Part shown: positions 7,305 through 24,410 of the stretch, piece by piece
How positions within the stretch are numbered: position 1 is the stretch's first letter
How the letters are laid out: every line of letters begins with the position of its first letter
NCBI GenBank assembly: GCA_022574415.1
Contig: JACZSC010000008.1
Span: 1-24,890 of the forward strand
DNA from: Nitrososphaerota archaeon
GTDB lineage: Archaea; Thermoproteota; Nitrososphaeria; Nitrososphaerales; Nitrosopumilaceae
Length of the DNA stretch: 24,890 bases
Direction: 5' to 3'
Notes under the pieces: model-generated
The model's database searches: none
Seen by the model: only the letters and a program-made list of their open reading frames with translations
What the model was told of the DNA's origin: nothing
Made by a program: the position numbers and the translations under genes

Positions 7305-7312
7305 GAGCGGTT

Positions 7313-8300: not shown

Positions 8301-8375
8301 AAGAATCCGCCAGGATTTAGTTCTACTCCCTAACAGTCATATTCCCTGTATAGGAATTGAACTAAATGGTTGAAT

Positions 8376-8413
8376 CCATTGAGACCTGCACCATTTATGG
8401 GATTATTTTAGAC
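8376..8413 (+). repeat. Right copy of ~38-bp direct repeat flanking the Fic gene
   Basis: See 7313-7350. Confidence 0.75.
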
Positions 8414-8422
8414 CCGTTAACG

Positions 8423-8464
8423 GTTCGTATCAAATGTAATTCAGGTCTAAACGAATTTATCGAT
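8423..8464 (+). repeat. 42-bp flank sequence 'X' (starts with the GTTCGTATCAAATGT motif), identical copy at 23043-23084
   Basis: GTTCGTATCAAATGTAATTCAGGTCTAAACGAATTTATCGAT is 42/42 identical at both loci. Here it abuts the casposon left end. Confidence 0.95.
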
Positions 8465-8465
8465 T

Positions 8466-8518
8466 ATCGATAAAAAGGCAATCCCCCCCTCTCACGAAGA
8501 AAAATGTGACGGGTAATC
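8466..8518 (+). repeat. Casposon left terminal inverted repeat (TIR-A, left)
   Basis: ATCGATAAAAAGGCAATCCCCCCCTCTCACGAAGAAAAATGTGACGGGTAATC. Its exact reverse complement is at 16908-16960. It contains a C7 run that stands out in AT-rich DNA. Confidence 0.95.
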
Positions 8519-8574
8519 TTCGTAACCTTTTTAGCTGAAATGTGCGTAAACCATGGTAGACCGAGGTAAACAAA

Positions 8575-8844
8575 ATGCCAACAATATCAGCAAAACTGTC
8601 AAAGAAAGAACATGATGCAATTGTTGAATATGCAAATGCTTGTGGAGAAACAGTATCTAATCTTGTAAGAAAGGTAATGTTGACTGAGGCTACCTTCATG
8701 AATGGTTATCATGATTCTATGGATTATCACTATGAGATCACAGTTCCTGATAATGTTTCAGGTGAAGAGGAAGATAGAATTGTTTTAGGTGCCTACAATA
8801 AAATTAGAAGAATTTTAGGTTTGAAAGAGCAAGATGAGATTTAA
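8575..8844 (+). CDS. Small ribbon-helix-helix (CopG/MetJ-like) DNA-binding protein
   Basis: 89-aa ORF. The N-terminus MPTISAKLSKKEHDAIVEYANACGETVSNLVRKVM fits a beta-strand/helix/helix RHH pattern. It is the first gene inside the left TIR. Confidence 0.5.
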   Translation: MPTISAKLSKKEHDAIVEYANACGETVSNLVRKVMLTEATFMNGYHDSMDYHYEITVPDNVSGEEEDRIVLGAYNKIRRILGLKEQDEI

Positions 8845-8847
8845 GAA
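8812..8847 (+). repeat. 36-nt direct repeat (copy 1), 3' end of the RHH gene
   Basis: ATTTTAGGTTTGAAAGAGCAAGATGAGATTTAAGAA versus ATTTTAGGTTTTGAAGAGATAGATGAGATTTAAGAA at 9235-9270 (32/36). A third partial copy, AGGATTTGAAGAAATTAATGAGATTTAA, is at 8853-8880. Confidence 0.8.
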
Positions 8848-8876
8848 TTTTCAGGATTTGAAGAAATTAATGAGAT

Positions 8877-9203
8877 TTAATCTACGATTAGTTGAATCCC
8901 TTGAAGAGATAAACCGAAAATAACCATTCCTAGTGGAATATACTTTGTTTTATAATTCCAATAAACTTCAAAACCTCGATGAACTGGGTCCGTTGCTCCC
9001 TTTGGTGTATGAGCCATCTCAATATATGCAACATCTTTTTCTTCCCATCTTTCAAAACCTTTGTTAATTAGATGCTTAGTTTTCCACTTTTTCCAATTAT
9101 TCTCGGTTGGTTTTTTACCATAATACTTTATCATTAGTATAAACCCAAATATCTCACATGCAATTCCAATCACAGCAATAATTTCAAAAGATTCTAAAAC
9201 CAT
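8877..9203 (-). CDS. Small membrane protein (108 aa)
   Basis: N-terminal hydrophobic helix IIAVIGIACEIFGFILMI and C-terminal helix IPLGMVIFGLSLQGIQLI. It is bracketed by the 36-nt direct repeats. Confidence 0.55.
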   Translation of the reverse strand: MVLESFEIIAVIGIACEIFGFILMIKYYGKKPTENNWKKWKTKHLINKGFERWEEKDVAYIEMAHTPKGATDPVHRGFEVYWNYKTKYIPLGMVIFGLSLQGIQLIVD

Positions 9204-9234
9204 ACGATAGAAATTTGCATTGTATTATCTAAGG

Positions 9235-9270
9235 ATTTTAGGTTTTGAAGAGATAGATGAGATTTAAGAA
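9235..9270 (+). repeat. 36-nt direct repeat (copy 2)
   Basis: See 8812-8847. Confidence 0.8.
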
Positions 9271-9317
9271 CACTGAAAATTTGTCAAAACTTGACGATTA
9301 ATAAAATGAAAATTTAG

Positions 9318-9968
9318 TTAACTCTCTATTTTAGTAATTAATTTTTCAAATATTTCAGATGATCCTCTCAATAATTTGTAAAGTGCATCTATGTTTTGAC
9401 CCCTACTTAGCATTCTACAAGAGTAGGTATTTCCAACACTTTCGTAGCGAGGCTGAATATCTATAGAAAGCCAATCATCTAACCTATCATTATCGCCTTT
9501 AGCAGTAAAATGTAATCTGCTTGTTTGTAATGGTCTGCCTATGATTTCTTCAAAATCTTTTTGTATTCTGGAGTCTTCAGATGCTGCAGATATTGACAAA
9601 ATAGCATTTTTATCACTGATATAATTACTCATACAATCTACTTCGTAAAATCTAACAAATTTTTCAAGATTTGTTTTAAAATCACGATTTGAAACTGAAA
9701 AGAATTCTTTCTGTGCTTCAATTAAATTAGTCACCCGCGGATTATGAAAACCAAAAACTAATTTTGAATAATCTGTATAGAATTCTGTATTTTGTTTTGT
9801 AGCATTAATAGATCCTATGCTTGAAGCAGCCATGTTTTTGTAATTTAGTTGGGTTAAGATATCTGTAATTACTATTCTATCAAGAGGCCAGTAAACACTT
9901 TTCAATCTGATGCCTAATCTTTTATCAATGACCCTTTCTCTTTCAAACACAGGAATTTTTTTTGCCAT
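9318..9968 (-). CDS. Hypothetical protein (216 aa), casposon cargo
   Basis: Clean ORF 6 nt downstream of the wHTH gene on the same strand. No motif recognised. Confidence 0.6.
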   Translation of the reverse strand: MAKKIPVFERERVIDKRLGIRLKSVYWPLDRIVITDILTQLNYKNMAASSIGSINATKQNTEFYTDYSKLVFGFHNPRVTNLIEAQKEFFSVSNRDFKTNLEKFVRFYEVDCMSNYISDKNAILSISAASEDSRIQKDFEEIIGRPLQTSRLHFTAKGDNDRLDDWLSIDIQPRYESVGNTYSCRMLSRGQNIDALYKLLRGSSEIFEKLITKIES

Positions 9969-9974
9969 TGTTTA

Positions 9975-10499
9975 TCAAGTTGTACTTATAGGTTGTTGAT
10001 CCATATTCTCATAAGACATATGTGGTCTAATTTTTTGCCTTAGTGTTCCTACTAGAATAGATTCAAATTTTTCTTTGGTGCGTTCCTTTTCTTGATGATC
10101 TTGTTTTGTGATTTCTTCCCAATCTCTTGCTAGTTTGATTTCTGTTTTATCAGATCCCGACACACTTTCTGTTTTTCTTTCACTAGGATACATTATATCA
10201 AATAAGGAATCAAAAACTAATTCTGGAATGTCTGTGACATCATAATACGAAAAACCTTTATTCCCACTTTTTTCGTAAAAATTCTTTACTAAATTACCGT
10301 CTTGTAATTCGTTTAGTCGAATAGTTAAACTACTGGGACTAAATTGAAATTTTTCTTTTATTTCATTAAATGACATCTTTCCATGTTTTAGCAATGCAAT
10401 CAATAATCCAAGATTTTTTTCATCCGAAATCCCTTTTAGTAAAAGCCTTATTTCCTCAGGCATTTCGTTGGAATAATTTAATAGGGTACTAGAGTACAA
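9975..10499 (-). CDS. Winged-helix (ArsR/MarR-like) DNA-binding protein
   Basis: 174-aa ORF. NLGLLIALLKHGKMSFNEIKEKFQFSPSSLTIRLNELQDGNLVKNF fits an HTH plus wing pattern. Confidence 0.55.
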   Translation of the reverse strand: MYSSTLLNYSNEMPEEIRLLLKGISDEKNLGLLIALLKHGKMSFNEIKEKFQFSPSSLTIRLNELQDGNLVKNFYEKSGNKGFSYYDVTDIPELVFDSLFDIMYPSERKTESVSGSDKTEIKLARDWEEITKQDHQEKERTKEKFESILVGTLRQKIRPHMSYENMDQQPISTT

Positions 10500-10534
10500 T
10501 TTTCTGAATCTCAGTACAATTTCTTGTATTTTGT

Positions 10535-10544
10535 ATATTTATAA
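10535..10544 (+). promoter_or_regulatory. TATA-like box upstream of 10565..11098
   Basis: ATATTTATAA is centred about 25 nt upstream of the GTG start, consistent with a leaderless archaeal transcript. It lies in a 65-nt divergent intergenic region. Confidence 0.3.
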
Positions 10545-10564
10545 TTTGTTATGATATTAATCGT

Positions 10565-11098
10565 GTGAGTGGCCGTTGGGAAAAATACAATCGGAGATTA
10601 GAGAAGGAGTTTGAACCTCTTAAAAGAGTCATGACAATGACTATCTACGGATCGTATTATCCTCAATCAGAAAAAGACTTTCTAATAAGTCAGAGAGATT
10701 TTTTGAGAGACAAAGGATATGAAAATACGAATATTGTAGATGATTATCCTGATCCTGAACCTGATATAACTTCTTTAGAAAAAAGTATAAGATGTTTAGA
10801 ATTTTCTGATGTTAATTTTTTAGTTTTTACTAGAGAAGGAAAACGGTATGGAGTGTCAAGAGAATTAACACATATTGCAACATCAAGTAGAATGATTGAT
10901 AAAATACCTTTTTGTACCGTATTTGAACAAGTTAGAGATGAAAGAGATTCCATACCACCACTGTCTCTTGACGATATAAATAATTCAGGAATTAATAGAC
11001 GAGAATTTGAAACTGAACAACAATTGCAAACTGCTTTATCCCAACAATCTTTTGCAAAACTAAGGAGATTACAAAATACATTAATCAAACGCCTATAA
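10565..11098 (+). CDS. Hypothetical protein (177 aa); weak resemblance to nucleoside 2-deoxyribosyltransferase/TIR-like Rossmann proteins
   Basis: GTG start. The pattern MTIYGSYY ... SDVNFLVFTREGKRYGVSRELTHIA loosely resembles the strand/helix layout and G..xE motif of that fold. Not a secure call. Confidence 0.5.
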   Translation: MSGRWEKYNRRLEKEFEPLKRVMTMTIYGSYYPQSEKDFLISQRDFLRDKGYENTNIVDDYPDPEPDITSLEKSIRCLEFSDVNFLVFTREGKRYGVSRELTHIATSSRMIDKIPFCTVFEQVRDERDSIPPLSLDDINNSGINRREFETEQQLQTALSQQSFAKLRRLQNTLIKRL

Positions 11099-11164
11099 TT
11101 AATCGATATAGTCTTAATGTATAAAGTACCTTAATGTATTTTGAATTGATATAATTCAAAAATA

Positions 11165-12946
11165 TCAAACAGAGTGTTTATCAAAATAATTTAATGATAA
11201 AGGAAATGATTCATTCATAATTTTCTCATCAATAGACTTGATTTGCCCTAACCATAATCTTTTACGATCGGCATTAAGATTAACTTCTCTTTCATATTCT
11301 TTGATCTTACCAATCTCTGAAATGTTATCCTGTAAAATAGAAGAACGAAGTCTAGCACTACGAAGCAATCTAATTTTCATAATTAGTTTTCCATCTTTTT
11401 CATATGTCTGAAGATTTTCAATGTCTCGAGTTCCAAGTCTACCGAGACCACGTTGTTTCCATTTTCCATTATAACGATAAAATCCATTTTGTAAATAGAA
11501 AACATCATCAGCAGTATTCTCAAAAGAAAACTCACCTAATCTATTTGAATCAATATCTAGAAATTTTGTGACGCAAAGACTGTCAGTTGCAAAACTTACA
11601 ACATATCGTTCCAAGCCATATTTTTGCACAAATTTGTATAATTGAGCACGAGTTATGCCTGTAATTGTGGCAAAAATAACAGGATTAAATAAATTTCCTA
11701 TTTTAAATCGAATTCGCTCACCAGTTTTTCCATAGATGGAGTTTAGAATTATTTTAATTGGTAATTGTAGTGGATTCTTGTTTTGTTTTAGTTGTAATCT
11801 TTTTGTGTACATTTTTTCAATAAAATCTTTGAATGGAAAAAATTCTTTATCGGGAATAAATTGAAATGATTTCAAAATTTTATAATTAATGTTTTTACAT
11901 GCTCGTAACTCAGCCAGTGTGCAATAAGTTTGAAACTTTCCTGATGGGAATATAATAATATTATTTGCACGGAAAGGTAATGGTGGAATATATTTACAAT
12001 CAGAAATATTTACTTTAATTTTAAAAAAACCAAGCGTTGCATCACTTTGAATTTTATTTGATGATATCCATTGACCTTTTGTTATATCAGGAATTTTTGT
12101 TAATGCATGTGGATATGCTGAATTAATATCATAAAGATAAGCGGTTCCTATGTAGCCACGTTTTAGAATTTCAAATCTTCCACCAAAGTAACTCCTGTAA
12201 GCTAAATCTTGTATTTCATATGGTATGCAATCAAACTTTGGAATTTCAATATGATTATTGATTAGAACTTTTTCTGCAAGGTAACCAGAACTAATCCATC
12301 GTGCAGGATAAAATGAAAACGCATTATGAAATAAATTTATCCAGTGCTGTGATAATTCTTTAGTATATTTACAATCTGCAATACAATAATTTCTAACTTT
12401 AGTTTTATTTCTGTTATAATATCTTGGTGAAAATTGTGTACGTTCTTTTTTCATTAAAAGATAATCATTAGGTAGATCCTCAATGTTCTGTTGATATGCA
12501 TTAATCAATGAAGTATGATAGAACTGTGCAATATCAAAAAAGATAGAACTATGATGTCCTTTTCTGATGGCTAATTTCCTACTAGGAATATAATCTAGAG
12601 TATAGTCACCATAATGAAATCTCAATAATCCTGTCTTCTTGTAGGAATTGAGCTCTTCACCTAGCAGTTTGAGAATGACTTCAGCATCATAGGTGATATT
12701 ATAGAAAAAGTTCCATGCTCCTTGAAATTTCTTAGAAAATAGGAATTTTAGGCATGATCCAGGCGTGATTTTATCAAGGAATCGGCCATCAGAATCAGCT
12801 ATGAGGAAAGGAGTTCCCTCGTAGGTCTCAGTATCAAGACCATAAACTGTTCTAAGACTAGAACAAGCAAACCGCCTATCTTGATGAACTTTGGTTCGCA
12901 GTCTTCTAAGATCTTTGTAATCTGTTATGGGGATGGATTCTGCCAT
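11165..12946 (-). CDS. polB: Protein-primed family-B DNA polymerase (pPolB)
   Basis: 593-aa ORF. Exonuclease motifs: ExoI YGLDTETY, ExoII NITYDAEVI, ExoIII YCIADCKY. Polymerase motifs: A LYDINSAYP (DxxSxYP), B KIILNSIYGK (Kx3NSxYG), C SFATDSL (variant of YxDTDS). The compact size is typical of protein-primed PolBs. Confidence 0.92.
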   Translation of the reverse strand: MAESIPITDYKDLRRLRTKVHQDRRFACSSLRTVYGLDTETYEGTPFLIADSDGRFLDKITPGSCLKFLFSKKFQGAWNFFYNITYDAEVILKLLGEELNSYKKTGLLRFHYGDYTLDYIPSRKLAIRKGHHSSIFFDIAQFYHTSLINAYQQNIEDLPNDYLLMKKERTQFSPRYYNRNKTKVRNYCIADCKYTKELSQHWINLFHNAFSFYPARWISSGYLAEKVLINNHIEIPKFDCIPYEIQDLAYRSYFGGRFEILKRGYIGTAYLYDINSAYPHALTKIPDITKGQWISSNKIQSDATLGFFKIKVNISDCKYIPPLPFRANNIIIFPSGKFQTYCTLAELRACKNINYKILKSFQFIPDKEFFPFKDFIEKMYTKRLQLKQNKNPLQLPIKIILNSIYGKTGERIRFKIGNLFNPVIFATITGITRAQLYKFVQKYGLERYVVSFATDSLCVTKFLDIDSNRLGEFSFENTADDVFYLQNGFYRYNGKWKQRGLGRLGTRDIENLQTYEKDGKLIMKIRLLRSARLRSSILQDNISEIGKIKEYEREVNLNADRKRLWLGQIKSIDEKIMNESFPLSLNYFDKHSV

Positions 12947-13251
12947 ATAGCATCAGGAATTGAAACTTCTTGTCCTCGCTTTCGTTTTCCAAATTGTCTT
13001 CTAATATCTAAATATTTTAAGTCAGGAAAATTATCTCGGATTAATCTAATGTAACGATGGTATTTTTCTAAAGATGATGAACGTTTACTAACTTTTGGTT
13101 CAGGTGCAACAGTTACTTTTGTTTGTTTTTCTAATCTTTCTAATGCTTTTTGTGTTCTGGAACGAAGTATTCGTACTTCATTATTATTTGGAAATAACTT
13201 TAATGCATCAAGTCTTTTTAAAAGTTTATTTCTTTGTTCTTCTAAACTCAT
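12925..13251 (-). CDS. Hypothetical basic protein (108 aa) immediately upstream of polB
   Basis: Overlaps the polB start by 22 nt, indicating operon coupling. Lys/Arg-rich. No motif recognised. Confidence 0.6.
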   Translation of the reverse strand: MSLEEQRNKLLKRLDALKLFPNNNEVRILRSRTQKALERLEKQTKVTVAPEPKVSKRSSSLEKYHRYIRLIRDNFPDLKYLDIRRQFGKRKRGQEVSIPDAIWQNPSP

Positions 13252-13280
13252 AGTATCACCAAAAAAATATGAAGGTTAGT

Positions 13281-13622
13281 CTAGGTTTTTCCTAGACTAA
13301 ATCTTCGTATTGGTCTATTGTTTCTACTTTTGTCAAGATAGGTCTCGATTGTAAGTTTATCACCAATTTTGATAATGTTGTCTTTACCACCTCTAGTCCA
13401 CTGATTTAGGAGTGAACTGTTTTTTGATTCATGGCTTTTTAGAGGAACAACAATTGTATTCCATTTGTTATTCTCAAAGATTTCAGCTTCAACATTGATA
13501 GAATATTCTGTTTCAAATGTTTCAAGCTCTTTTACACGAATCTTTATTGTGTCTGGTTTGTCTTTGTCTTTGCTTTTGTATTGCCCCCACTTTAAAAAAG
13601 GAGGATAAAGAGAATCACTCAT
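13281..13622 (-). CDS. Hypothetical protein (113 aa), polB operon
   Basis: Its start overlaps the stop of the upstream AbrB-like gene by 4 nt (ATGA). The sequence looks beta-rich. No motif recognised. Confidence 0.6.
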   Translation of the reverse strand: MSDSLYPPFLKWGQYKSKDKDKPDTIKIRVKELETFETEYSINVEAEIFENNKWNTIVVPLKSHESKNSSLLNQWTRGGKDNIIKIGDKLTIETYLDKSRNNRPIRRFSLGKT

Positions 13623-13822
13623 TTTGGAATTCTCCTTTTTGTTTTGATGGGAGTTAGAATCAATCTCCCATCTTGTGACATGGAAACATTTACTTCCATG
13701 TTTTTACTGAGATAGTTCTCAGTGAATGTCTTGGGCAAAGTTACCACTTTAGAAAAATTCATGGTACTGACTTTTCTTGTGCCCAAGTCTAGATTTTTGA
13801 CTATGGATTTTACTTTAGACAT
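13619..13822 (-). CDS. AbrB/SpoVT/MazE-like swapped-hairpin DNA-binding protein
   Basis: 67-aa ORF. SKVVTLPKTFTENYL...VSMSQDGRLILTPI matches the (V/I)T(I/L)PK ... G.(I/L)(I/L)L.P pattern of AbrB-type domains. It is the first gene of the leftward polB operon. Confidence 0.5.
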   Translation of the reverse strand: MSKVKSIVKNLDLGTRKVSTMNFSKVVTLPKTFTENYLSKNMEVNVSMSQDGRLILTPIKTKRRIPK

Positions 13823-13872
13823 ATTATGCTGTTAGTAAATACCTTAAAATGGGATACTAATGTAGCCCACTT

Positions 13873-14559
13873 ATGGAACTGACCTACGGTATTGGACCAA
13901 ACAAAACCAAGTATTGCAAATTTAAGGCTAAAAACTCTGAATTTGTTTACGATATTGACGGAATTCGCAAAGGAAAAAGATTCAAACATGAACAACGCCG
14001 AGAATTAATTATTAATATTATTGCAAGAAATCACATTAGTCATAATCATTTACTACATCTTACAACAGCATTAGGAAAAATTGCAAAAAAAACTACAGTA
14101 AAAATACTCAAAGAACTAGAAGATGATCGACTAATTGAATCAGAGCAGGAAGGAAATAGTTCTAATTCTATAAAAACATGGATGATAAAATCACCAGAAT
14201 CTGAAATTGAGAAACATGCAAAAAAAGAAACACAAAACATCATTGCAAGTTTGCAAGAATACATTCAAACCATAGAGAAAAAATTTGAAAAACTAAACCA
14301 AGTTGAAAAAGATTATGCAATGGCCAATCTTTTAGACATATTACATAGTTGGCAACCAATTATTGAAATTATAAATCATGACACTAGAATTAAAAATGAA
14401 AAGAAAAAGTTTGACTCTCTTCTAAATCAAGCTTATAATATTTTAAAATATGAAAAACGTGATGGTATAGATACAAGATCATTTTTGCGTAGGTTACTGC
14501 ATCTTAAAGCATCAGAACCAATGGTTATTATGAATAATTTTTTAGAGGAAATTAAATGA
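13873..14559 (+). CDS. Putative winged-helix protein with helical C-terminal domain
   Basis: 228-aa ORF. ISHNHLLHLTTALGKIAKKTTVKILKELEDDRLIESEQ is HTH/wing-like. The stop overlaps the start of the next gene by 4 nt. Confidence 0.55.
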   Translation: MELTYGIGPNKTKYCKFKAKNSEFVYDIDGIRKGKRFKHEQRRELIINIIARNHISHNHLLHLTTALGKIAKKTTVKILKELEDDRLIESEQEGNSSNSIKTWMIKSPESEIEKHAKKETQNIIASLQEYIQTIEKKFEKLNQVEKDYAMANLLDILHSWQPIIEIINHDTRIKNEKKKFDSLLNQAYNILKYEKRDGIDTRSFLRRLLHLKASEPMVIMNNFLEEIK

Positions 14560-15125
14560 ATGACTTTACACCTAATCCATTAGTTTTACAAGAACTTGAA
14601 AAAGTCAGTCAAGTTTGGGATAACCTGATAGAAAACATGCATACAAAATCGAATAAAGATAGAATTACATCAATTCTAGTTCAAGTAATGCTTGAGTACT
14701 ACATTGATAGAATTTTGATTATTAACAAAGTTGATTCGCCTAAGAAAATTTACAAGATGAGATATGATAGTACACTCGAAAAATTAAAAGAACTCAATTT
14801 AATTGATAACAACCTTGAACATGACCTGCTGAATTTCTATGAAATTAGAAACATATATGCACATGAAATTGAAATTCATGAAAAACAGATTTTGGATTTA
14901 GTTAATGGTGTTAAAACAGTAAAGGACCCTACTAGATTTATAGAGAAAGATAGATTTCAGCAAGTTTTTCAAATTATTTTACGGCAAGTTCAGAGAACAT
15001 TTGAAGCAGTTCTAGTTAGGGAACAAGAAAAAAGTGAAGAAAATACTCACTCTATATCTCAAAATAATTCTTCTTTTTCACGTAATAGTCTACGATATTG
15101 TGAACAGCAATTTTGGCTATTGTAA
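14556..15125 (+). CDS. HEPN-superfamily (MtlR/DUF4145-like) protein
   Basis: 189-aa ORF. LEKLKELNLIDNNLEHDLLNFYEIRNIYAHE carries the Rx4H HEPN signature in the context typical of MtlR-like HEPN domains. The last ~24 codons run antisense through a cas1 3' relic, so the C-terminus may be chimeric. Confidence 0.5.
   Translation: MNDFTPNPLVLQELEKVSQVWDNLIENMHTKSNKDRITSILVQVMLEYYIDRILIINKVDSPKKIYKMRYDSTLEKLKELNLIDNNLEHDLLNFYEIRNIYAHEIEIHEKQILDLVNGVKTVKDPTRFIEKDRFQQVFQIILRQVQRTFEAVLVREQEKSEENTHSISQNNSSFSRNSLRYCEQQFWLL
15052..15123 (-). pseudogene. Relic of a second, diverged cas1 3' end
   Basis: It translates to ITIAKIAVHNIVDYYVKKKNYFEI*, against the intact Cas1 C-terminus ITIAKIAVQNLVEFCTGKQKEFRI*. 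Nucleotide identity is nearly complete over ACAGCAAT(T/C)TTGGCTATTGT. Homology stops exactly at the TAATCCTGAAAATTC motif (15124). Confidence 0.8.
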
Positions 15126-15144
15126 TCCTGAAAATTCTTAATTC
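15124..15144 (+). repeat. AATCCTGAAAATTCTTAATTC motif copy
   Basis: Exact consensus, directly abutting the cas1 relic. Confidence 0.85.
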
Positions 15145-15271
15145 ATAGTTTGAGATAGAAACTTTATGCCTGTCTGTGAAAAATGCGGTCAGCCAGCTTC
15201 TCAATGTATTACATGAGATGAAGCGAAGGGCGTAACTAGAATACATTATTTTTGCAAAAATCATAATCCAA

Positions 15272-15291
15272 AATCTGAAAATTCTTAATTC
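15272..15291 (+). repeat. AATC(C)TGAAAATTCTTAATTC motif copy, promoter-like
   Basis: AATCTGAAAATTCTTAATTC, followed by TTAGTTTCAACTAGAAAATTCATG. The same leader precedes the ATG at 23977. Confidence 0.85.
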
Positions 15292-15312
15292 TTAGTTTCA
15301 ACTAGAAAATTC

Positions 15313-15552
15313 ATGACCGATGATAAAAAAATGAAAATCATGTGCAAATGGTGTAATGTTTCTAAAACCTGTCACATCGTTAGTCAAGAAATTACAGATC
15401 ATCATGGACACTATGGGATAGATAGTGTTATGATGGCCAAAGTCAAAATTCACAAGCATTTCAAAGGAAAAAATTACTGCAAAGGCTCAGATAGAACAAT
15501 TACTGTACCTCTAGATAAGATACTAAAAGATAATGAAAAGAATAGAGATTAG
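15313..15552 (+). CDS. Small Cys/His-rich protein (79 aa)
   Basis: CKWCNVSKTCH...DHHGH...CKG. Preceded by the conserved leader and followed immediately by the AGATTCTAAACTCTTTTT relic. Confidence 0.55.
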   Translation: MTDDKKMKIMCKWCNVSKTCHIVSQEITDHHGHYGIDSVMMAKVKIHKHFKGKNYCKGSDRTITVPLDKILKDNEKNRD

Positions 15553-15568
15553 ATTCTAAACTCTTTTT
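15551..15568 (+). repeat. AGATTCTAAACTCTTTTT: copy of the cas1 stop-codon region
   Basis: Identical to 15773-15790, which encodes the last Cas1 codons KEFRI* on the minus strand. Confidence 0.85.
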
Positions 15569-15770
15569 TTCACAAAAATTAATGAAAAACGTGCTCAAGT
15601 GTTCGTACCAGTGCGTATTCTCGGATCAAAGTCAAACAGTAAACCTTTATCCACTTACTCGAAATGTTTGACTATGGGAGTAGGTCGAACACAAAGACAT
15701 TATTGTAACAAGTGTCATCTAAAACGCCCTAAATGTATCTGTAAAAAACAGTAAACGAGATTAATAATTC

Positions 15771-16850
15771 TTAGATTCTAAACTCTTTTTGTTTTCCAGT
15801 ACAAAACTCAACTAAATTCTGTACAGCAATCTTGGCTATTGTTATTTCATGACAAGACTTTAGACCGTCTTTGGTCTTTGCTCCATGTTTAGACGCATAG
15901 CGTCTTTCTTTCTGGAATGTTCTTTCAAGTAATTCTAAGAACCGTCTAATCAAATTATAGTCTAAAACAACTAAACCCTCTTTTGTAAAGGCGTAATCTT
16001 TCTTGTAGATTCTATGCTCTTTATTGGTTTCATTAGCTAACATGTATGCAGAATAATCAACAAGCCATCTGAACGGCTCTATCAAGTCATAAACTAACGG
16101 CTGAAAACTAATGTGTTCTTTGTGATAGAATCCAAAGTATGCATCTAGACCCATTCCGTTGATATATTTGGAAATCTCTCCAGCTAAAACCGAATAGCCG
16201 TAATTCAAAAGCCCATTAATGACATCACTAGCAGTTCTTTTTGAAATCTTCTGACTAGACTGATTTCTTGAAACAAATCCATGCCTTTCAGGAATTAGTT
16301 TTGAATATTCAATAAAGTACGCTCGACCAGAACCAGCCTCTAAACCCAATTCAGAACGTATTGAAACTTGTCTTAGATTACCCTCAAGAGTTTCAATTCC
16401 TAAATTCAAGTCAGTCCTTTCTACAGACTTTAAGAATCTGATCTGCGATTGTAATTTTGCTTTAACAATCTGCTTTGAAAGGTATCTTCTCTTTTCTGTA
16501 TCCCTAAAGGTGTCATACTGAGCCATTCGATATTTTGTCGCAGTGTTTGATTCCATTACACCATTAATCATAGAAACTGGCTTTCCGTAGGTATCTAGTA
16601 GAATAAGATTTCGATTATGTTGATTTAGTAGGCTCATGGCTTCGGTTGAAACGTAGCCTTTACCAGATAGAACGATTTTTTCATAAGGAAGATTATTGAT
16701 GAACCATTCTTCTGATTCGGATTCTTTGAATGGGTCGTAATTGTTCTTTAGAACAAGTTTGTTATCTTTTACAGAAACAGAAAAGCCGTAACCCTTGAGA
16801 AATTTTACGTTGTAATGACTGTGTTGACCTTTCTGCGTCATAACGCACAT
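15771..16850 (-). CDS. cas1: Cas1 homologue (casposase-type Cas1-solo)
   Basis: 359-aa ORF. Cas1 signatures are ILLDTYGKP (N-terminal beta domain), GLEAGSGRAYF (catalytic Glu region), NGLLNYGYSVL, and YFGFYHKEH...LVYDLIEPFR (catalytic His and Asp/Glu). A C-terminal extension is present. The gene ends 58 nt from the right TIR. Confidence 0.93.
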   Translation of the reverse strand: MCVMTQKGQHSHYNVKFLKGYGFSVSVKDNKLVLKNNYDPFKESESEEWFINNLPYEKIVLSGKGYVSTEAMSLLNQHNRNLILLDTYGKPVSMINGVMESNTATKYRMAQYDTFRDTEKRRYLSKQIVKAKLQSQIRFLKSVERTDLNLGIETLEGNLRQVSIRSELGLEAGSGRAYFIEYSKLIPERHGFVSRNQSSQKISKRTASDVINGLLNYGYSVLAGEISKYINGMGLDAYFGFYHKEHISFQPLVYDLIEPFRWLVDYSAYMLANETNKEHRIYKKDYAFTKEGLVVLDYNLIRRFLELLERTFQKERRYASKHGAKTKDGLKSCHEITIAKIAVQNLVEFCTGKQKEFRI

Positions 16851-16907
16851 TTGATCAAAATTATTACTTAACGAATTTCCAACAAATCATAACGTGCATT
16901 ATAACGT

Positions 16908-16960
16908 GATTACCCGTCACATTTTTCTTCGTGAGAGGGGGGGATTGCCTTTTTATCGAT
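16908..16960 (-). repeat. Casposon right terminal inverted repeat (TIR-A, right)
   Basis: Exact reverse complement of 8466-8518. Subterminal direct sub-repeats (C/T)ATAACGTG x2 lie at 16887-16908. Confidence 0.95.
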
Positions 16961-16961
16961 T

Positions 16962-17040
16962 ATCGATAAAAAGGGAAAGTCCCCCTCCCACGCACGAATT
17001 ACGCTTATGACTTGCGTTATGACGTGAGTTGGTTTGTTGG
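16962..17040 (+). repeat. Diverged casposon-type end (TIR-B) lying head-to-head with TIR-A right
   Basis: ATCGATAAAAAGGGAAAGTCCCCCTCCCACGCACGAATTACGCTTATGACTTGCGTTATGACGTGAGTTGGTTTGTTGG. It shares with TIR-A the ATCGATAAAAAGG terminus, a C-rich block, two CG(C)TTATGAC sub-repeats and a terminal ...TTTGTTGG (cf. CCAACAAA at 16879). Confidence 0.8.
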
Positions 17041-17051
17041 AAAGGTTAACA

Positions 17052-17066
17052 GCTCGTATCAAATGT
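17052..17066 (+). repeat. GTTCGTATCAAATGT-family motif copy (GCTCGTATCAAATGT)
   Basis: One mismatch. Preceded by GTTAACA, as the 8423 copy is preceded by GTTAACG. Confidence 0.8.
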
Positions 17067-17104
17067 TAATTAGAATAAAAAAGAGAAAGGATTTTAGGTT
17101 CTGA

Positions 17105-17572: not shown

Positions 17573-17684
17573 CCGATCACTTGATCCTGAGACTAATTAA
17601 TGATGATCTAATGTGATTCATTTCATAATTTCATTATAACGCTAGTCATGAGGCATAAACCGTTCATCAAATGTCTCATTTACA

Positions 17685-17699
17685 GTTCGTATCAAATGT
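17685..17699 (+). repeat. GTTCGTATCAAATGT motif copy, with degenerate copy CGTTCATCAAATGT at 17661-17674
   Basis: Exact consensus in tandem with a degenerate copy 24 nt upstream. Confidence 0.8.
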
Positions 17700-17819
17700 C
17701 AACAGAATTACCGAACTGTCTACTCTTTTAAGACCCACCCCATTTTTGGTTTTAATTTGGAACCTATCTAAGCAAATTTTATTCCGGGTCTAGAAAATTA
17801 TCAAACATTTCTTTTGTTC

Positions 17820-22012: not shown

Positions 22013-22065
22013 AACTAATCTATGATATTTGAATTTATATGTGATATTAACGCAAGGATAATAAT

Positions 22066-22109
22066 CTAAGAATTAAGAATTTTCAGGATTAATAGTTCGT
22101 ATCAAATGT
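22066..22109 (-). repeat. Composite repeat (AATCCTGAAAATTCTTAATTC motif + GTTCGTATCAAATGT motif), inverted partner of 23918-23960
   Basis: The reverse complement ACATTTGATACGAACTATTAATCCTGAAAATTCTTAATTCTTAG matches ACATTGATACGAATTGTTAATCCTGAAAATTCTTAATTCTTAT, with 1 indel and 3 mismatches. Confidence 0.85.
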
Positions 22110-22984: not shown

Positions 22985-23042
22985 TCTTCTAAATAATTAT
23001 CTTTGAAATTTGATTATTCAGACTAGAACAAATCTGTTGACA

Positions 23043-23084
23043 GTTCGTATCAAATGTAATTCAGGTCTAAACGAATTTATCGAT
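23043..23084 (+). repeat. Second copy of 42-bp flank 'X'
   Basis: 42/42 identical to 8423-8464. Confidence 0.95.
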
Positions 23085-23165
23085 AAAGAGTGAAAATAGA
23101 ACTTCCCTCTCCGACGCACAAATTCCTATTATAACTATCGTTATGACGTGAGTTTGTTTTGTTGG
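23079..23165 (+). repeat. Solo casposon-type end (TIR-B'), related to 16962-17040
   Basis: ATCGATAAAGAGTGAAAATAGAACTTCCCTCTCCGACGCACAAATTCCTATTATAACTATCGTTATGACGTGAGTTTGTTTTGTTGG aligns along its length with TIR-B (shared CGACGCAC/CCACGCAC, CGTTATGACGTGAGTT, TTTGTTGG). No partner end and no cas1/polB are nearby. Confidence 0.8.
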
Positions 23166-23483
23166 AGATTTGAAAAAAGAAAAACAACGATTAAACTAAA
23201 AAAATAGAGTAAAATGTCTATTCAATAGTATTTTAAAAGATACCAATTCTGTTGTAATACATTGCCAGAACATACTAAAGAATGTGAGTATAGAATCACT
23301 CATGACTTTAGGCATGATAACTGTTTTTGTGAATGTCATGACAAAGGGAAGTATCATGGAAGAATTACCAAAAATGTTAGAAAAAGCAATACCAATACTA
23401 CAAAAGCAAGCAAAGATTAGTTAGGCAACTTAATTTGTTTTTCTAAATCTCGTAATTTCCTTGATAAATTATCACAATTCCTC

Positions 23484-23527
23484 TAAGTTCTAAATTATCT
23501 TTTTGTAATCCTGAAAATTCTTAATTC
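23484..23527 (+). repeat. cas1-3'-end-like relic fused to AATCCTGAAAATTCTTAATTC motif
   Basis: TAAGTTCTAAATTATCTTTTTGT (cf. TTAGATTCTAAACTCTTTTTGT at 15771-15792) is followed directly by AATCCTGAAAATTCTTAATTC (23507-23527). Confidence 0.7.
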
Positions 23528-23623
23528 ATTTCTGAAATAAATGTCGAATTAGGTCATTTTGTTAGATTTCAGTGGGTATTGCCTTTTATTGAGAGTAAAA
23601 AGACAAAGCACTAGGAATAAGAT

Positions 23624-23773
23624 ATGAAGTACATGTGTAGAACCTGTAAAAAAAAATGTGATGATATTATAGAACATTTGATGACAGTACACAAATTTTC
23701 AAAAACAACTATAGAATCTCAACTCAAAGCAAACCCAAATAGTTTTAACCATGCCTTTGAAAAATTAGAATAA
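23624..23773 (+). CDS. Possible mini zinc-finger protein (49 aa)
   Basis: MKYMCRTCKKKCDDIIEHLMTVHKF... has CxxC...HxxxH spacing like a C2H2 finger. It is below the ORF-track size cut-off and was found by manual translation. Confidence 0.35.
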   Translation: MKYMCRTCKKKCDDIIEHLMTVHKFSKTTIESQLKANPNSFNHAFEKLE

Positions 23774-23788
23774 ACATTCAATACGAAC
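23774..23788 (-). repeat. GTTCGTATCAAATGT-family motif copy (GTTCGTATTGAATGT on minus strand)
   Basis: The plus strand reads ACATTCAATACGAAC. Confidence 0.7.
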
Positions 23789-23917
23789 TGTTACAGAGTC
23801 TTTTTTTCTTTGAAATGGCTATTTGAAACACGGAAGCTGATAGCGTGCTTTGAATAACGCAACACGTTTATTCATTTGCTTGACTAATGTACCTCATGTC
23901 TTGTTGGCTTCCGTCTA

Positions 23918-23960
23918 CATTGATACGAATTGTTAATCCTGAAAATTCTTAATTCTTATG
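23918..23960 (+). repeat. Composite repeat, inverted partner of 22066-22109; also left arm of a ~25-bp inverted pair with 24357-24382
   Basis: See 22066-22109. TAATCCTGAAAATTCTTAATTCTTA versus the reverse complement of 24357-24382, TAATTCTGAAAATTCTTAATTCTTAA. Confidence 0.85.
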
Positions 23961-23976
23961 TTGATCTAGAAAATTC

Positions 23977-24315
23977 ATGAATTTTGAACTGAAAAAAACT
24001 CTGTCAATAAAGATAAAACGCTTAGATATGTTCCCAAATTACTTTTTTGGAATTGCTGAGATAAATGGAGAAGACTACAAGATTAACATTCAAGGTCAGA
24101 GTGTATTTACAAAAAATTCAATCAAATTGCCAATAAAATTTAAAGATGAAAAAGCATTATTACGTCTAAGCGGAATTAATGGTTCTTATTTTGAGGATAT
24201 TGTAAATTACGAAGGAAAATCAGAATGGATAGAAATAGGTTCTGATAGAATTTTGTTCTATTTGGCAGATCATCAAGACCAAATTAACATTATAGATGTT
24301 CTAAGTAGATTCTAA
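23977..24315 (+). CDS. Hypothetical protein (112 aa) in a repeat-bounded cassette
   Basis: Preceded by the same leader as 15313..15552 (CTAGAAAATTCATG). The stop lies inside an AGATTCTAAACTCTTTTT relic. Confidence 0.55.
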   Translation: MNFELKKTLSIKIKRLDMFPNYFFGIAEINGEDYKINIQGQSVFTKNSIKLPIKFKDEKALLRLSGINGSYFEDIVNYEGKSEWIEIGSDRILFYLADHQDQINIIDVLSRF

Positions 24316-24398
24316 ACTCTTTTTGTTTCATCCTGGACTCCTAAACCCTTTTTTTATTAAGAATTAAGAATTTTCAGAATTAAAAAAGAGTTTAGAAT
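24307..24398. repeat. Inverted pair of cas1-3'-end relics enclosing an inverted AATTCTGAAAATTCTTAATTC motif
   Basis: AGATTCTAAACTCTTTTT at 24307-24324, GAATTAAGAATTTTCAGAATT at 24361-24381, and AAAAAGAGTTTAGAAT at 24383-24398. Confidence 0.8.
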
Positions 24399-24410
24399 TT
24401 TATTTAGGTC

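What the first reader, a model, noticed from the sequence alone, without database searches (positions are those of the whole stretch)
23043..23165. In-window paralogue of the insertion site: same 42-bp flank joined directly to a solo casposon-type end
Seen: 23043-23084 is 42/42 identical to 8423-8464. At the second locus it continues straight into a B-type end (23079-23165) carrying a single TATCGAT. At the first locus the same flank is followed by TATCGAT, the 8.5-kb element, TATCGAT, and then the B-type end. Deleting 8465-16967 in silico recreates the architecture seen at 23043-23165. Inference: this supports a precise insertion between flank X and a B-type end with a 7-bp TATCGAT duplication. 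Flank X, which begins with the recurrent GTTCGTATCAAATGT motif, may be the recognised target, analogous to a leader. The solo end could be the remnant of a decayed element or a non-autonomous relative.
Basis: partly seen in the sequence, partly recalled or inferred. Interest (0 to 1): 0.8.

Follow-up and report, generated by a model that had tools for sequence, protein, structure and literature searches.

The report
Second copy of casposon landing site
A second, unoccupied copy of the short DNA landing site of an archaeal Cas1-encoding transposon (casposon) lies 14.6 kb from the occupied copy and still carries the stub of an older element; comparison with related contigs indicates that insertion duplicates 13 bp, not 7 bp, and that the site imitates the end of the ef-2 gene.

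Summary
In detail: 23043-23084 is 42/42 identical to 8423-8464, and a casposon-type end follows. The 8.5-kb element is an intact family-1 (thaumarchaeal) casposon at 8472-16954, with Cas1, protein-primed PolB and 47-bp perfect TIRs.

The 7-bp TATCGAT duplication is not supported.
- The same TIR starts at its A-run in more than 10 independent metagenomic copies.
- About 100 family-1 junctions all read T-rich flank, 13-mer, AAAAA-TIR.
- So the duplication here is the 13-mer ATCGATTATCGAT, and TATCGAT is an internal repeat of it.

Locus 2 reads X, then ATCGATAAAGAGT, then an older Cas1-less end. That 13-mer matches 12/13 the experimentally defined N. koreensis TSD. Contig L076 has the same X and the same 13-mer on both sides of a related casposon, followed by a B-type end. 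It is the occupied state of the locus-2 architecture at another site.

The last 17 nt of X plus the 13-mer imitate the ef-2 3' end (…NEFIDKE*), the canonical family-1 target. The recurrent 15-nt motif is a separate dispersed repeat.

Orthologous loci in related genomes lack the pseudo-leader, the 13-mer and the end. The landing pad therefore appears to have arrived with casposon-derived DNA.

Verdict: a new variant of a known kind, of moderate to high interest.

The parts
8375..8411 (+). Repeat D18a. Left bracket of the 9.35-kb segment that is absent from the orthologous Fic locus L106.
   Evidence: family D18; window 8340-8411 joined to 17761-17900 aligns across the junction to L106.
8417..8437 (+). 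Copy of the dispersed intergenic motif (TTAACG GTTCGTATCAAATGT). It forms the 5' part of flank X.
   Evidence: Motif copies without casposon ends occur in L102-L105 and L107.
8442..8458 (+). Pseudo-ef-2 leader CAGGTCTAAACGAATTT, the 3' part of X. It ends in the TTT that is the minimal leader in N. koreensis.
   Evidence: mean identity 10/17 to 26 open-frame leaders, of which 22 have the ef-2 tail, versus 4.4 by chance (P about 5e-5, anchored comparison). (PMC8464041).
8459..8471 (+). Left copy of the 13-bp target site duplication, ATCGATTATCGAT.
8472..16954 (.). Intact family-1 casposon 'A' (8,483 bp), with 47-bp perfect TIRs at 8472-8518 and 16908-16954.
   Evidence: TIR 47/47. (Cas1, pPolB). 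(TIR tip defined by more than 10 independent copies).
11165..12946 (-). [quoted passage not shown]
   Evidence: PF03175, E = 1.3e-25.
15771..16850 (-). Casposase (Cas1 homologue, 359 aa). No other Pfam family matched.
   Evidence: PF01867, E = 7.7e-46, residues 20-309; 1101 homologues, named sources Nitrososphaeria.
16955..16967 (+). Right copy of the 13-bp TSD, ATCGATTATCGAT.
16968..17045 (+). Solo 'B' end: the Cas1-proximal-type terminus of an older sister casposon (TIR plus subterminal region, 78 nt).
   Evidence: 79% identical to the live B-type end of L074 and 77% to L100..
17046..17090 (+). X': a motif copy (TTAACAGCTCGTATCAAATGT) plus an A-rich tail, directly inside the B end. The same junction is conserved in L100 and L085.
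   Evidence: L100 33-220 matches 17088-16901 at 82%..
17724..17760 (+). Repeat D18b. Right bracket of the segment that is absent from L106.
23037..23061 (+). Locus 2: motif copy (TTGACA GTTCGTATCAAATGT AATT). It forms the 5' part of the second X.
23062..23078 (+). Locus 2: pseudo-ef-2 leader CAGGTCTAAACGAATTT, identical to 8442-8458.
   Evidence: With the 13-mer it reads …SGLNEFIDKE* (ORF 23010-23093).
23079..23091 (+). Locus 2: single 13-mer ATCGATAAAGAGT, the unduplicated target (TSD unit). It matches 12/13 the N. koreensis AR1 TSD and is identical to the TSD flanking the casposon in L076.
   Evidence: ATTGATAAAGAGT. (L076 124-136 and 4497-4509)..
23092..23168 (+). B' end: the terminus of an older casposon of the AAAATAGAA-TIR type. 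No Cas1 gene follows it.
   Evidence: 76% to B, 72% to L074. (colinear alignment). (no Cas1 ORF).
23169..24330 (+). Probable Cas1-less remnant interior behind B'. It holds a 49-aa Zn-finger ORF (23624-23773), a 112-aa ORF (23977-24315), and promoter-like and terminator-like repeats shared with casposon A. The right boundary is unknown.
   Evidence: orf49 homologue inside the Cas1-less end of L085. (D11, D15, D17: 27/27 identity 15120-15146 = 23503-23529)..

Best explanation
Locus 2 (23037-23168) is a second copy, in the same genome, of a casposon landing pad. Each pad consists of three parts.
- A leader whose last 17 nt (CAGGTCTAAACGAATTT) imitate the 3' end of the ef-2 gene.
- A 13-nt target unit directly after the terminal TTT.
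- The Cas1-proximal end of an older, decayed family-1 casposon.

At locus 1 an intact 8,483-bp family-1 casposon (8472-16954) has integrated into such a pad.

Inferred mechanism, by analogy with the N. koreensis enzyme: the casposase joins the 3' ends of the two 47-bp TIRs to the two target strands, at TTT|A on the top strand and 13 nt downstream on the bottom strand. Gap repair then duplicates the 13-mer (ATCGATTATCGAT at 8459-8471 and 16955-16967). The new element lands next to the leader and pushes the older remnant (B) away from it, as new spacers do in a CRISPR array.

Locus 2 shows the same architecture without the newer element. There the 13-mer is ATCGATAAAGAGT and the older end is B'.

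Shown directly:
- the anatomy and the 13-nt register;
- reuse of X as flank by other casposons;
- the ef-2 mimicry;
- absence of the pad from orthologous loci.

Inferred:
- the chemistry and polarity of integration;
- that the pad reached both loci together with casposon-derived DNA, probably through the dispersed motif repeats that border it.
For: Element identity
- Cas1 and protein-primed PolB by Pfam.
- 47-bp perfect TIRs.
- Homologues with a named source are all Nitrososphaeria.

The 13-bp register
- The A-type TIR begins at the A-run in L076, L077, L078, L080, L082, L084, L085, L088, L096, L098 and L100, each with different preceding bases.
- About 100 family-1 junctions from 73 genome loci and 24 metagenome contigs all read T-rich flank, 13-mer (A…T), AAAAA-TIR. 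Both ends of complete elements carry the same 13-mer.
- MAFFT aligns nine junctions colinearly with no gap in the 13-mer.
- The experimentally measured TSD is 13 bp, ATTGATAAAGAGT, with leader TTT (PMC8464041).

X as leader
- L076 reads X, ATCGATAAAGAGT, casposon, ATCGATAAAGAGT, B-type end.
- L077 reads X (1 mismatch), ATCGACAAAGAAT, TIR.

Ef-2 mimicry
- X plus the 13-mer encode …SGLNEFIDKE*; real ef-2 ends in …DEFIDKE*.
- The 17-nt leader is on average 10/17 identical to 26 open-frame leaders (22 with the ef-2 tail), against 4.4 by chance.
- Related A-type casposons sit at real ef-2 genes in L078 and L088.

B-type ends come from real elements
- L074/L075, whose Cas1 is 93% identical, carry a B-type end 79% identical to B.

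Independent reuse of the site next to B
- L100 has an A-type element in the opposite orientation beside the orthologous 13-mer, B and X'.
Against: - No variant of locus 1 with X, 13-mer and B but without A was found, so the pre-insertion 13-mer is inferred, not observed.
- Within the window alone, the 7-bp and 13-bp models align equally well to locus 2.
- The locus-1 13-mer differs from the locus-2 13-mer at 5 of its last 7 positions, although the 42 nt upstream are identical. It lacks the A11 and the ATAA ruler that matter for the N. koreensis enzyme. This is unexplained.
- The casposase of this element has never been assayed.
- The related contigs were found with a TIR pattern, so the co-occurrence of X with ends is biased by ascertainment.
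- Orthologous loci lack X's pseudo-leader. X is therefore not a conserved host target in the ordinary sense.
Confidence: 0.78

Rival explanations
1. The casposon is 8465-16960 and inserted between X and B with a 7-bp TATCGAT duplication. Locus 2, with a single TATCGAT, shows the pre-insertion architecture exactly.
For: - TATCGAT occurs twice at each junction and once at locus 2.
- Deleting 8465-16967 aligns to locus 2 with the same number of identities as the alternative.
- A site X-TTTATCGAT-AAAAAGGG could in principle arise by recombination within the 12-bp palindrome TTTATCGATAAA. That palindrome is shared by forward and reverse TSD junctions (sequences; inference).
Against: - It requires the TIR to carry an extra (T)ATCGAT, unequal at the two tips (TATCGAT vs ATCGAT). 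The identical TIR in L076, L084, L088, L078 and L096 is preceded by GAGT or GAAT instead.
- It needs a 7-nt gap to align B with B', while all nine junctions align gaplessly with a 13-mer.
- The family-wide spacing is 13 nt, and the measured TSD is 13 bp.
- L076 shows a 13-bp duplication at the same X.
Confidence: 0.06
2. Portable landing pad. This extends the best explanation rather than excluding it. The unit [motif, pseudo-ef-2 leader, 13-mer, casposon end] is itself propagated to new loci, by recombination at the dispersed motif/D18 repeats or by aberrant casposon mobilisation that carries flanking target DNA. X would then be part of casposon-derived mobile DNA that seeds new integration hotspots, not a host sequence.
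For: - Four orthologous comparators lack the pseudo-leader, 13-mer and end. L106 equals the window minus 8412-17760, a segment bracketed by D18 repeats. L107 has D18 plus the motif only. L102 and L104 diverge from the window after 23021.
- X is 98-100% identical over the 36 nt up to the terminal TTT at four sites with four different upstream flanks.
- A 30-nt copy of the ef-2 end cannot arise independently.
- Fifteen further pseudo-ef-2 sites, all lacking the ef-2 tail upstream (14 with in-frame stops; L032 counted by eye), occur in intergenic DNA of other Nitrososphaeria contigs.
- Motif copies border the unit: X and X' at locus 1, and the same end-motif junction in L100 and L085.
Against: - No transfer intermediate was seen, and no mechanism is demonstrated.
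- Deletion of the pad in the comparators, by D18-D18 recombination, explains L106 equally well.
- The right boundary of the locus-2 unit lies outside the window.
- Conservation of the pseudo-leader could reflect ascertainment, since only functional targets carry ends.
Confidence: 0.35
3. Plain segmental duplication. X, the 13-mer and the end were copied once as ordinary DNA, and casposon A landed next to one copy by chance or through TIR homology. X would have no role in targeting.
For: Two copies lie 14.6 kb apart in the same orientation, in a region rich in dispersed repeats.
Against: - Divergence is highly uneven: 42/42 in X, 2/7 in the second half of the 13-mer, and 76% in the ends.
- Independent casposons with different TIR types abut X in L076 and L077 at exactly 13 nt.
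Confidence: 0.05
4. Assembly artefact. Repeats such as the TIRs or the palindromic 13-mer caused a chimeric join, so that the junctions are not real.
For: - The 19-bp near-palindrome TTTATCGATTATCGATAAA and the 47-bp TIRs are difficult for assemblers.
- Contig L103 ends inside a motif copy.
Against: - Both junctions of A carry the same 13-mer.
- The same architecture recurs in independently assembled contigs (L076, L100), including a related palindrome-like 13-mer, ATCGACAATCAAT.
- The flanks match L106 on both sides of the extra segment.
Confidence: 0.03

Closest known systems
NitAR1-C1, the family-1 casposon of Ca. Nitrosopumilus koreensis AR1, and its biochemically defined target (Béguin 2019, PMC6614799; Wang 2021, PMC8464041)
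   Same: - A Cas1-type casposase with no second Pfam domain, protein-primed PolB and TIRs.
- A 13-bp TSD directly after a leader that ends in TTT.
- The locus-2 13-mer ATCGATAAAGAGT matches 12/13 the AR1 TSD and has A1, A11, T13 and ATAA at positions 5-8.
- The B' TIR is of the AAAATAGAA type, whose complement ends in the TTCTA used in the AR1 assays.
   Different: - The target here is not the ef-2 gene. It is a 30-nt imitation of the ef-2 3' end in intergenic DNA, present at least twice in the genome.
- The occupied site has a palindrome-like 13-mer (ATCGATTATCGAT) without A11 or the ATAA ruler.
- The Cas1 proteins of species-representative genomes (GTDB; AR1 itself was not among the loci recovered) are at most about 66-68% identical to this one.
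Solo-TIRs and tandem casposons of Methanosarcina mazei, families 2 and 4 (Krupovic 2016, PMC4779613)
   Same: - Casposon-derived ends without casposon genes sit at the preferred target, next to the conserved target motif.
- Repeated use of one site produces arrays separated by a shared TSD.
- The authors discuss these as possible intermediates towards CRISPR.
   Different: - A different casposon family, host phylum and TSD length (14 bp).
- Those sites are conserved host loci (IR1, tRNA-Leu).
- No imitation of a gene end that moves between loci was described there.
Tandem NitNF5-C1/C2 at ef-2 and intergenic NitEve-C1 (Krupovic 2019, PMC6563490)
   Same: - Family-1 elements that reuse one target, and one element in an intergenic region.
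- The 73 genome loci examined here show that arrays of the form TIR, 13-mer, TIR are the rule at ef-2.
   Different: That paper reports the tandem as a first observation for family 1. In the passages I read it does not describe solo ends or ef-2-like sequence at intergenic sites.
CRISPR leader-repeat junction (polarised spacer integration by Cas1-Cas2)
   Same: - A leader plus a short duplicated unit.
- The new insert sits next to the leader and the older insert is pushed away from it.
- A ruler-type definition of the second cut has been shown for the AR1 enzyme.
   Different: - The inserts are whole transposons or their stubs, not spacers.
- There is no repeat-spacer array, no Cas2 and no crRNA.
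- No repeat-spacer array was evident in the repeat scan or the Rfam scan; no dedicated CRISPR search was run.

Membership tests
Family-1 casposon (element A, 8472-16954) | Cas1-family casposase without a C-terminal HTH domain | tested here: met
   PF01867 covers residues 20-309 of 359, E = 7.7e-46, and no other Pfam family was hit. The closest homologues are Nitrososphaeria Cas1 proteins. Absence of an HTH rests on the lack of a Pfam hit only.
Family-1 casposon (element A, 8472-16954) | Protein-primed (viral/organellar type) family B DNA polymerase | tested here: met
   PF03175 DNA_pol_B_2, E = 1.3e-25, on the 593-aa ORF 11165-12946.
Family-1 casposon (element A, 8472-16954) | Terminal inverted repeats flanked by a target site duplication | tested here: met
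   47-bp perfect TIRs. Identical 13-mers at 8459-8471 and 16955-16967.
Family-1 casposon (element A, 8472-16954) | Integration into the 3' end of the ef-2 gene (the commonest target, not universal) | tested here: not met
   The window holds no ef-2 gene. The flank is a 30-nt imitation of the ef-2 end within a 27-codon ORF.
Family-1 casposon (element A, 8472-16954) | Three or four conserved uncharacterised genes upstream of pPolB | not tested
   ORFs 12925-13251, 13281-13622 and 13619-13822 lie in the right position. They were not compared with arCOG14992 or related families.
N. koreensis-type target site (leader-TSD-spacer) | Leader ending in TTT directly before the TSD | tested here: met
   AATTT at 8454-8458 and at 23074-23078; compare.
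N. koreensis-type target site (leader-TSD-spacer) | 13-bp TSD with A1, A11 and T13, and ATAA at positions 5-8 | tested here: inconclusive
   Locus 2 (ATCGATAAAGAGT) meets all of these. Locus 1 (ATCGATTATCGAT) has A1 and T13 but G11, and ATTA at positions 5-8. The requirements of this particular casposase are unknown.
N. koreensis-type target site (leader-TSD-spacer) | Site-specific integration by the cognate casposase | not testable with these tools
   This needs an in-vitro integration assay.
Casposon solo-TIR (sensu Krupovic 2016) | Sequence matches a casposon terminus | tested here: met
   B is 79% and B' 72% identical to the live end of L074. All align colinearly.
Casposon solo-TIR (sensu Krupovic 2016) | Located at the casposon target, next to the target motif | tested here: met
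   Both ends start exactly 13 nt after the leader TTT or the TIR TTT.
Casposon solo-TIR (sensu Krupovic 2016) | No casposon genes and no second TIR attached | tested here: inconclusive
   - B: 78 nt, then a motif copy and unrelated genes; no inverted TIR was found.
- B': no Cas1 or PolB. However, small ORFs and promoter and terminator repeats are shared with casposon interiors for about 1.2 kb. The window ends before any right boundary.
CRISPR array | Regularly spaced short direct repeats with unique spacers, next to a leader | tested here: not met
   Only two or three 13-mers, separated by a transposon or its stub. The direct- and inverted-repeat scan and the Rfam scan showed no such array. 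No tandem-repeat or dedicated CRISPR search was run.

The most novel reading that the evidence does not exclude
Family-1 casposons may spread not only themselves but also their own landing pads. A roughly 110-160-bp module (a 17-nt imitation of the ef-2 3' end, the 13-bp target unit and a solo casposon end, bordered by a dispersed host repeat) would be copied to new intergenic loci. Each copy would become a polarised integration hotspot, with the newest element next to the leader. That would be a natural, mobile 'leader-repeat' unit of the kind postulated as the intermediate between casposons and CRISPR arrays.
Probability: 0.3. Interest if true: 0.8.

Novelty: new variant of a known kind. Interest (0 to 1): 0.6.

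Why it matters
Casposons are the proposed ancestors of the CRISPR adaptation machinery. How a transposase target could turn into a leader-repeat unit is an open question. This locus contributes three things.

1. Natural evidence that a family-1 casposase uses a 13-bp duplication at a non-ef-2 site. The occupied architecture (L076 and locus 1) and the unoccupied architecture (locus 2) are both available.

2. Comparative evidence on the leader.
- 13-18 nt of ef-2-like leader persist in non-coding imitation sites across many Nitrososphaeria.
- This hints that the leader used in vivo is longer than the 3 nt sufficient in vitro.
- That prediction can be tested directly.

3. An indication that leader, target unit and solo end move or are lost as one module.
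- The module is absent from four orthologous loci.
- Such a module is the kind of intermediate that casposon-to-CRISPR scenarios require.

The result also corrects a plausible but wrong reading. An internal repeat of a palindrome-like target was mistaken for a 7-bp duplication.

Tried and rejected
- tRNA scan of the window found none, so the target is not a tRNA.
- Rfam scan at E up to 1 found no hit, so neither X nor the motif belongs to a described RNA family.
- Exact-protein look-up of the Fic ORF found nothing on record. I used homologues instead.
- Viral-contig scans with the TIR pattern and with the X pattern gave no hits.
- The 15-nt motif is absent from the 73 species-representative casposase loci. 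At up to 2 mismatches only scattered, probably chance, hits appear there.
- I searched for a second, inverted TIR that would make B or B' a miniature casposon. None was found. The only trace is a 14-nt subterminal-like match at 17636-17649, E = 0.01, which I regard as insignificant.
- I tested whether the gene downstream of FNR in L102/L104 reappears in the window, to fix the right boundary of the locus-2 insert. It does not.
- I considered that ATCGAT belongs to the TIR, because it precedes the TIR in L074 and L077 as well. I rejected this: there it is the reverse complement of a normal 13-mer (AATCTTTATCGAT is the reverse complement of ATCGATAAAGATT), and other copies of the same TIR lack it.
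- I considered several mechanistic origins for the palindrome-like 13-mer: hairpin or P-nucleotide footprints, carried-over flanks with TIR homogenisation, and recombination within ATCGAT. None reproduces the observed junctions, so the 13-mer is left unexplained.
Full report
**1. Observation**

The window is AT-rich (34% GC). A script confirmed that 8423-8464 and 23043-23084 are identical at 42/42 positions (sequences). The identity stops at both ends, though 5 of the 7 bases further left also match. At locus 2 the flank runs into a sequence 76% identical to the 'B-type end' that follows the 8.5-kb element (ungapped repeat D16). TATCGAT occurs once at locus 2 and twice at each junction of the element.

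**2. What the element is**

- ORF 15771-16850 (minus strand) is a Cas1-family protein (PF01867, E = 7.7e-46).
- ORF 11165-12946 (minus strand) is a viral/organellar-type, protein-primed family B polymerase (PF03175, E = 1.3e-25).
- The termini are 47-bp perfect inverted repeats, 8472-8518 and 16908-16954.
- Cas1 has more than 1,100 homologues. All of those with a named source are Nitrososphaeria.

This is a family-1 casposon. It looks intact, and its perfect TIRs and identical flanking repeats suggest a recent insertion.

**3. Where the element ends and how long the duplication is**

The two junctions read:
- left: …AATTT ATCGATTATCGAT AAAAAGGCAATCCCCCCC…
- right: …GGGGGGGATTGCCTTTTT ATCGATTATCGAT AAAAAGGGAAAG…

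ATCGAT is a palindrome, the leader ends in TTT and the TIR begins with AAA. The boundaries are therefore ambiguous from this sequence alone.

External evidence decides the question.
1. One metagenome scan with the TIR pattern returned 24 contigs. In L076, L077, L078, L080, L082, L084, L085, L088, L096, L098 and L100 the same A-type TIR starts at its A-run. The bases before it differ: GAGT, GAAT, GATT, TAGT, CAAT, CGAT. TATCGAT is therefore flank, not TIR.
2. About 100 family-1 termini, from 73 genome loci and the metagenome contigs, all show a T-rich flank, a 13-mer beginning with A and ending with T, and an AAAAA-TIR. Complete elements carry the same 13-mer at both ends.
3. MAFFT aligns nine junctions colinearly, with no gap in the 13-mer.
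4. The only biochemically characterised family-1 casposase, from N. koreensis AR1, makes a 13-bp TSD, ATTGATAAAGAGT, after a leader ending in TTT (PMC8464041).

The duplication here is therefore the 13-mer ATCGATTATCGAT. The two TATCGAT copies are an internal repeat of each 13-mer.

**4. What locus 2 is**

Read in the same register, locus 2 is …AATTT | ATCGATAAAGAGT | GAAAATAGAACTTCCCTCTCC….
- The 13-mer matches the AR1 TSD at 12 of 13 positions. It has all the features that matter for that enzyme: A1, A11, T13 and ATAA at positions 5-8.
- What follows is a terminus of the AAAAATAGAA-TIR type, which is common in the family.
- The subterminal part of that terminus matches the Cas1-proximal ends of live elements.

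Contig L076 provides the matching occupied state. It has the identical X, then ATCGATAAAGAGT, then a 4.36-kb A-type element with Cas1 (85% identical to the window's). The 13-mer ATCGATAAAGAGT then recurs, followed by a B-type end. Locus 2 therefore shows the unoccupied state of the pad architecture that L076, at a different genomic site, shows occupied. The duplication is 13 bp.

B' is probably not a bare TIR.
- A 49-aa zinc-finger ORF (23624-23773) has a homologue just inside a Cas1-less A-type end in L085.
- Promoter-like and terminator-like repeats are shared with the interior of casposon A, including a 27/27 match between 15120-15146 and 23503-23529.
- No Cas1 or PolB gene is present, and the window ends before any right boundary.

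**5. B-type ends**

L074/L075 encode a Cas1 93% identical to the window's. Their Cas1-proximal end is of the B type, 79% identical to B. B and B' are thus ends of sister casposons. Solo ends and tandem insertions are already known for M. mazei casposons (PMC4779613), and a tandem pair is known for family 1 (PMC6563490). In the loci examined here, arrays of the form TIR, 13-mer, TIR are the rule at ef-2.

**6. What X is**

X has two parts.

The last 17 nt plus the 13-mer read CAGGTCTAAACGAATTT ATCGATAAAGAGT GA, which encodes …SGLNEFIDKE*.
- Real ef-2 genes next to family-1 casposons end in …P(T/G)(A/I)DE(F/Y)IDKE*, with the stop codon spanning T13.
- In an anchored comparison the 17-nt leader is on average 10/17 identical to 26 open-frame leaders, 22 of them with the ef-2 tail. 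Random window 17-mers give 4.4 (P about 5e-5).
- Upstream of X the frame is not ef-2; the ORF has only 27 codons.
- Related A-type casposons sit at genuine ef-2 ends in L078 and L088.
- X is therefore an imitation of the canonical target.
- Fifteen comparable imitation sites lacking the ef-2 tail upstream occur in other contigs (14 with upstream stops; L032 counted by eye). They retain only an estimated 13-18 nt of leader (judged by eye).
- Another protein-gene target (…IADEAIKNL*) has imitations of its own.

The first part of X is the recurrent GTTCGTATCAAATGT motif. It is a separate dispersed repeat.
- It occurs without casposon ends in the window and in L102-L105 and L107.
- It is conserved about 45 nt upstream of the FNR gene start in three orthologues. 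I read it tentatively as a cis-regulatory site.
- It also lies directly inside B-type ends, about 85 nt from the tip, in the window (X'), in L100 and in L085.

**7. Is X a host target?**

Functionally it is. X abuts three different casposon termini at exactly 13 nt (window, L076, L077). In L100 the site next to the orthologous B end was hit independently, in the opposite orientation.

Historically it apparently is not. The orthologous Fic locus L106 (94.6% nucleotide identity) equals the window with 8412-17760 removed, and that segment is bracketed by imperfect D18 repeats. L107 has only D18 plus the motif. The orthologous FNR loci L102 and L104 diverge from the window after 23021 and have no pseudo-leader, 13-mer or end. 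The landing pad therefore belongs to variable DNA that includes casposon remnants. Whether it was gained in the window lineage or lost in the comparators cannot be decided.

**8. Mechanism (inferred)**

By analogy with the AR1 enzyme, the casposase joins the TIR 3' ends at TTT|A on the top strand and 13 nt downstream on the bottom strand. The bottom strand there also reads TTT|A. Repair then duplicates the 13-mer. The TIR itself ends in TTTTT, so each insertion recreates valid junctions on both sides, which explains the arrays. In the window and in L076 the intact or younger element is next to the leader and the decayed one lies further from it.

**9. Unexplained**

The locus-1 13-mer equals the first 6 nt of the canonical unit, then T, then their reverse complement. 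It differs from the locus-2 unit at 5 of its last 7 positions, although the 42 nt upstream are identical.
- Related palindrome-like 13-mers occur in L100 (ATCGACAATCAAT) and L081. The reverse complement of the window's 13-mer is 11/13 identical to the imitation target in L054.
- A conversion or recombination boundary at ATCGAT is the simplest idea, but it is untested.

**10. Verdict**

The precise insertion, the leader-like flank and the remnant end are right. The TSD length and the role of the motif are wrong.
- In kind, this is a family-1 casposon with a solo end or remnant at a reused target, which is known.
- The target, however, is a duplicated and apparently transferable imitation of the ef-2 end. 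I did not find this described in the papers I read.

Noticed in passing
window 7290, 8423, 17052, 17685, 22095, 23043 (+); 23788 and about 23920 (-); also L076, L077 (4 copies), L085, L094, L100, L102-L105, L107: A dispersed motif of about 22 nt, T(T/G)(A/G)ACA GTTCGTATCAAATGT, specific to this lineage. It is absent from 73 species-representative casposase loci. It often flanks single genes: Fic, a 155-aa ORF and FNR. It is conserved about 45 nt upstream of the FNR start in three orthologous contigs. It may be a transcription-factor site or a recombination site.
   Followed up: partly
window 8412-17760 vs L106; D18 repeats at 7312-7350, 8375-8411 and 17724-17760: Relative to the orthologous Fic locus L106, the window carries a 9.35-kb extra segment bracketed by imperfect 37-nt direct repeats (D18). 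The segment comprises the pad, casposon A, the B end, a 155-aa ORF and motif copies. It is either an insertion in the window lineage or a repeat-mediated deletion in L106.
   Followed up: partly
window 8459-8471 and 16955-16967; L100 153-165; L081 2-14: Palindrome-like 13-mers occur between casposon ends in three independent assemblies: ATCGATTATCGAT, ATTGATTGTCGAT and ACTGATTGTCGAT. Each looks like the first half of a normal target unit joined to its own reverse complement. Their origin is unknown.
   Followed up: partly
L026, L032, L033, L047, L055, L060, L080, L083, L084, L085 (two sites), L087, L096, L098: Short imitations of the ef-2 3' end lie in intergenic DNA, each directly followed by a family-1 casposon end. 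They keep 13-18 nt of leader plus the 13-mer and have stop codons upstream. There are two sequence classes, matching the PPTADEF-type and PPGIDEY-type ef-2 tails.
   Followed up: partly
L008, L019, L058, L101 (real gene); L021, L054, L062 (imitations): Another family-1 target is the 3' end of a small conserved gene of about 110 aa ending in …TPKRNTIADEAIKNL*, with TSD ATTAAAAATCTAT. It has its own short imitations (…TKEIIDNL*, TSD ATTGATAATCTAT). L006 and L007 use a further gene end (…DSVIYAK*).
   Followed up: partly
most ef-2-adjacent loci among L001-L073 (for example L004, L005, L010, L011, L013, L016, L023, L024, L029, L030, L044): A second, often different, TIR lies directly beyond the distal 13-mer in nearly every case. 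Arrays of casposons or their remnants therefore seem to be the normal state of family-1 target sites.
   Followed up: partly
L076 137-4496; L077 99 to about 2450: Short Cas1-containing derivatives (4.36 kb and about 2.35 kb) lack a PolB gene. The L077 copy has two different TIR types and three internal motif copies. They are candidate non-autonomous or chimeric casposons.
   Followed up: no
window 15120-15146, 15267-15293, 8838-8858 (reverse complement), 22063-22091 (reverse complement), 23503-23529, 23931-23957, 24358-24388 (reverse complement): A promoter-like repeat, AATCCTGAAAATTCTTAATTC, occurs 23-36 nt before start codons, both inside casposon A and in the DNA around locus 2. A terminator-like TAGATTCTAAACTCTTTTT occurs at about 15550, 15772 and 24306.
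   Followed up: no
window 105-1949 (-): A 614-aa pentapeptide-repeat protein (PF00805, E = 3.9e-157) accounts for the 15-nt periodic repeats at the left end of the window.
   Followed up: no
window 24400-24890 (-), running off the window: A 66-nt periodic coding repeat, (AQREADRLAKQEAKQLQ…)n, probably encodes a coiled-coil protein. It is truncated by the end of the window.
   Followed up: no
window 6326-6418 and 6587-6679: A 93-nt direct repeat (90% identity) lies inside the N-terminal region of the 656-aa GT2 glycosyltransferase ORF. It is a duplicated cysteine-rich module, with weak LIM and zf-PARP hits.
   Followed up: no
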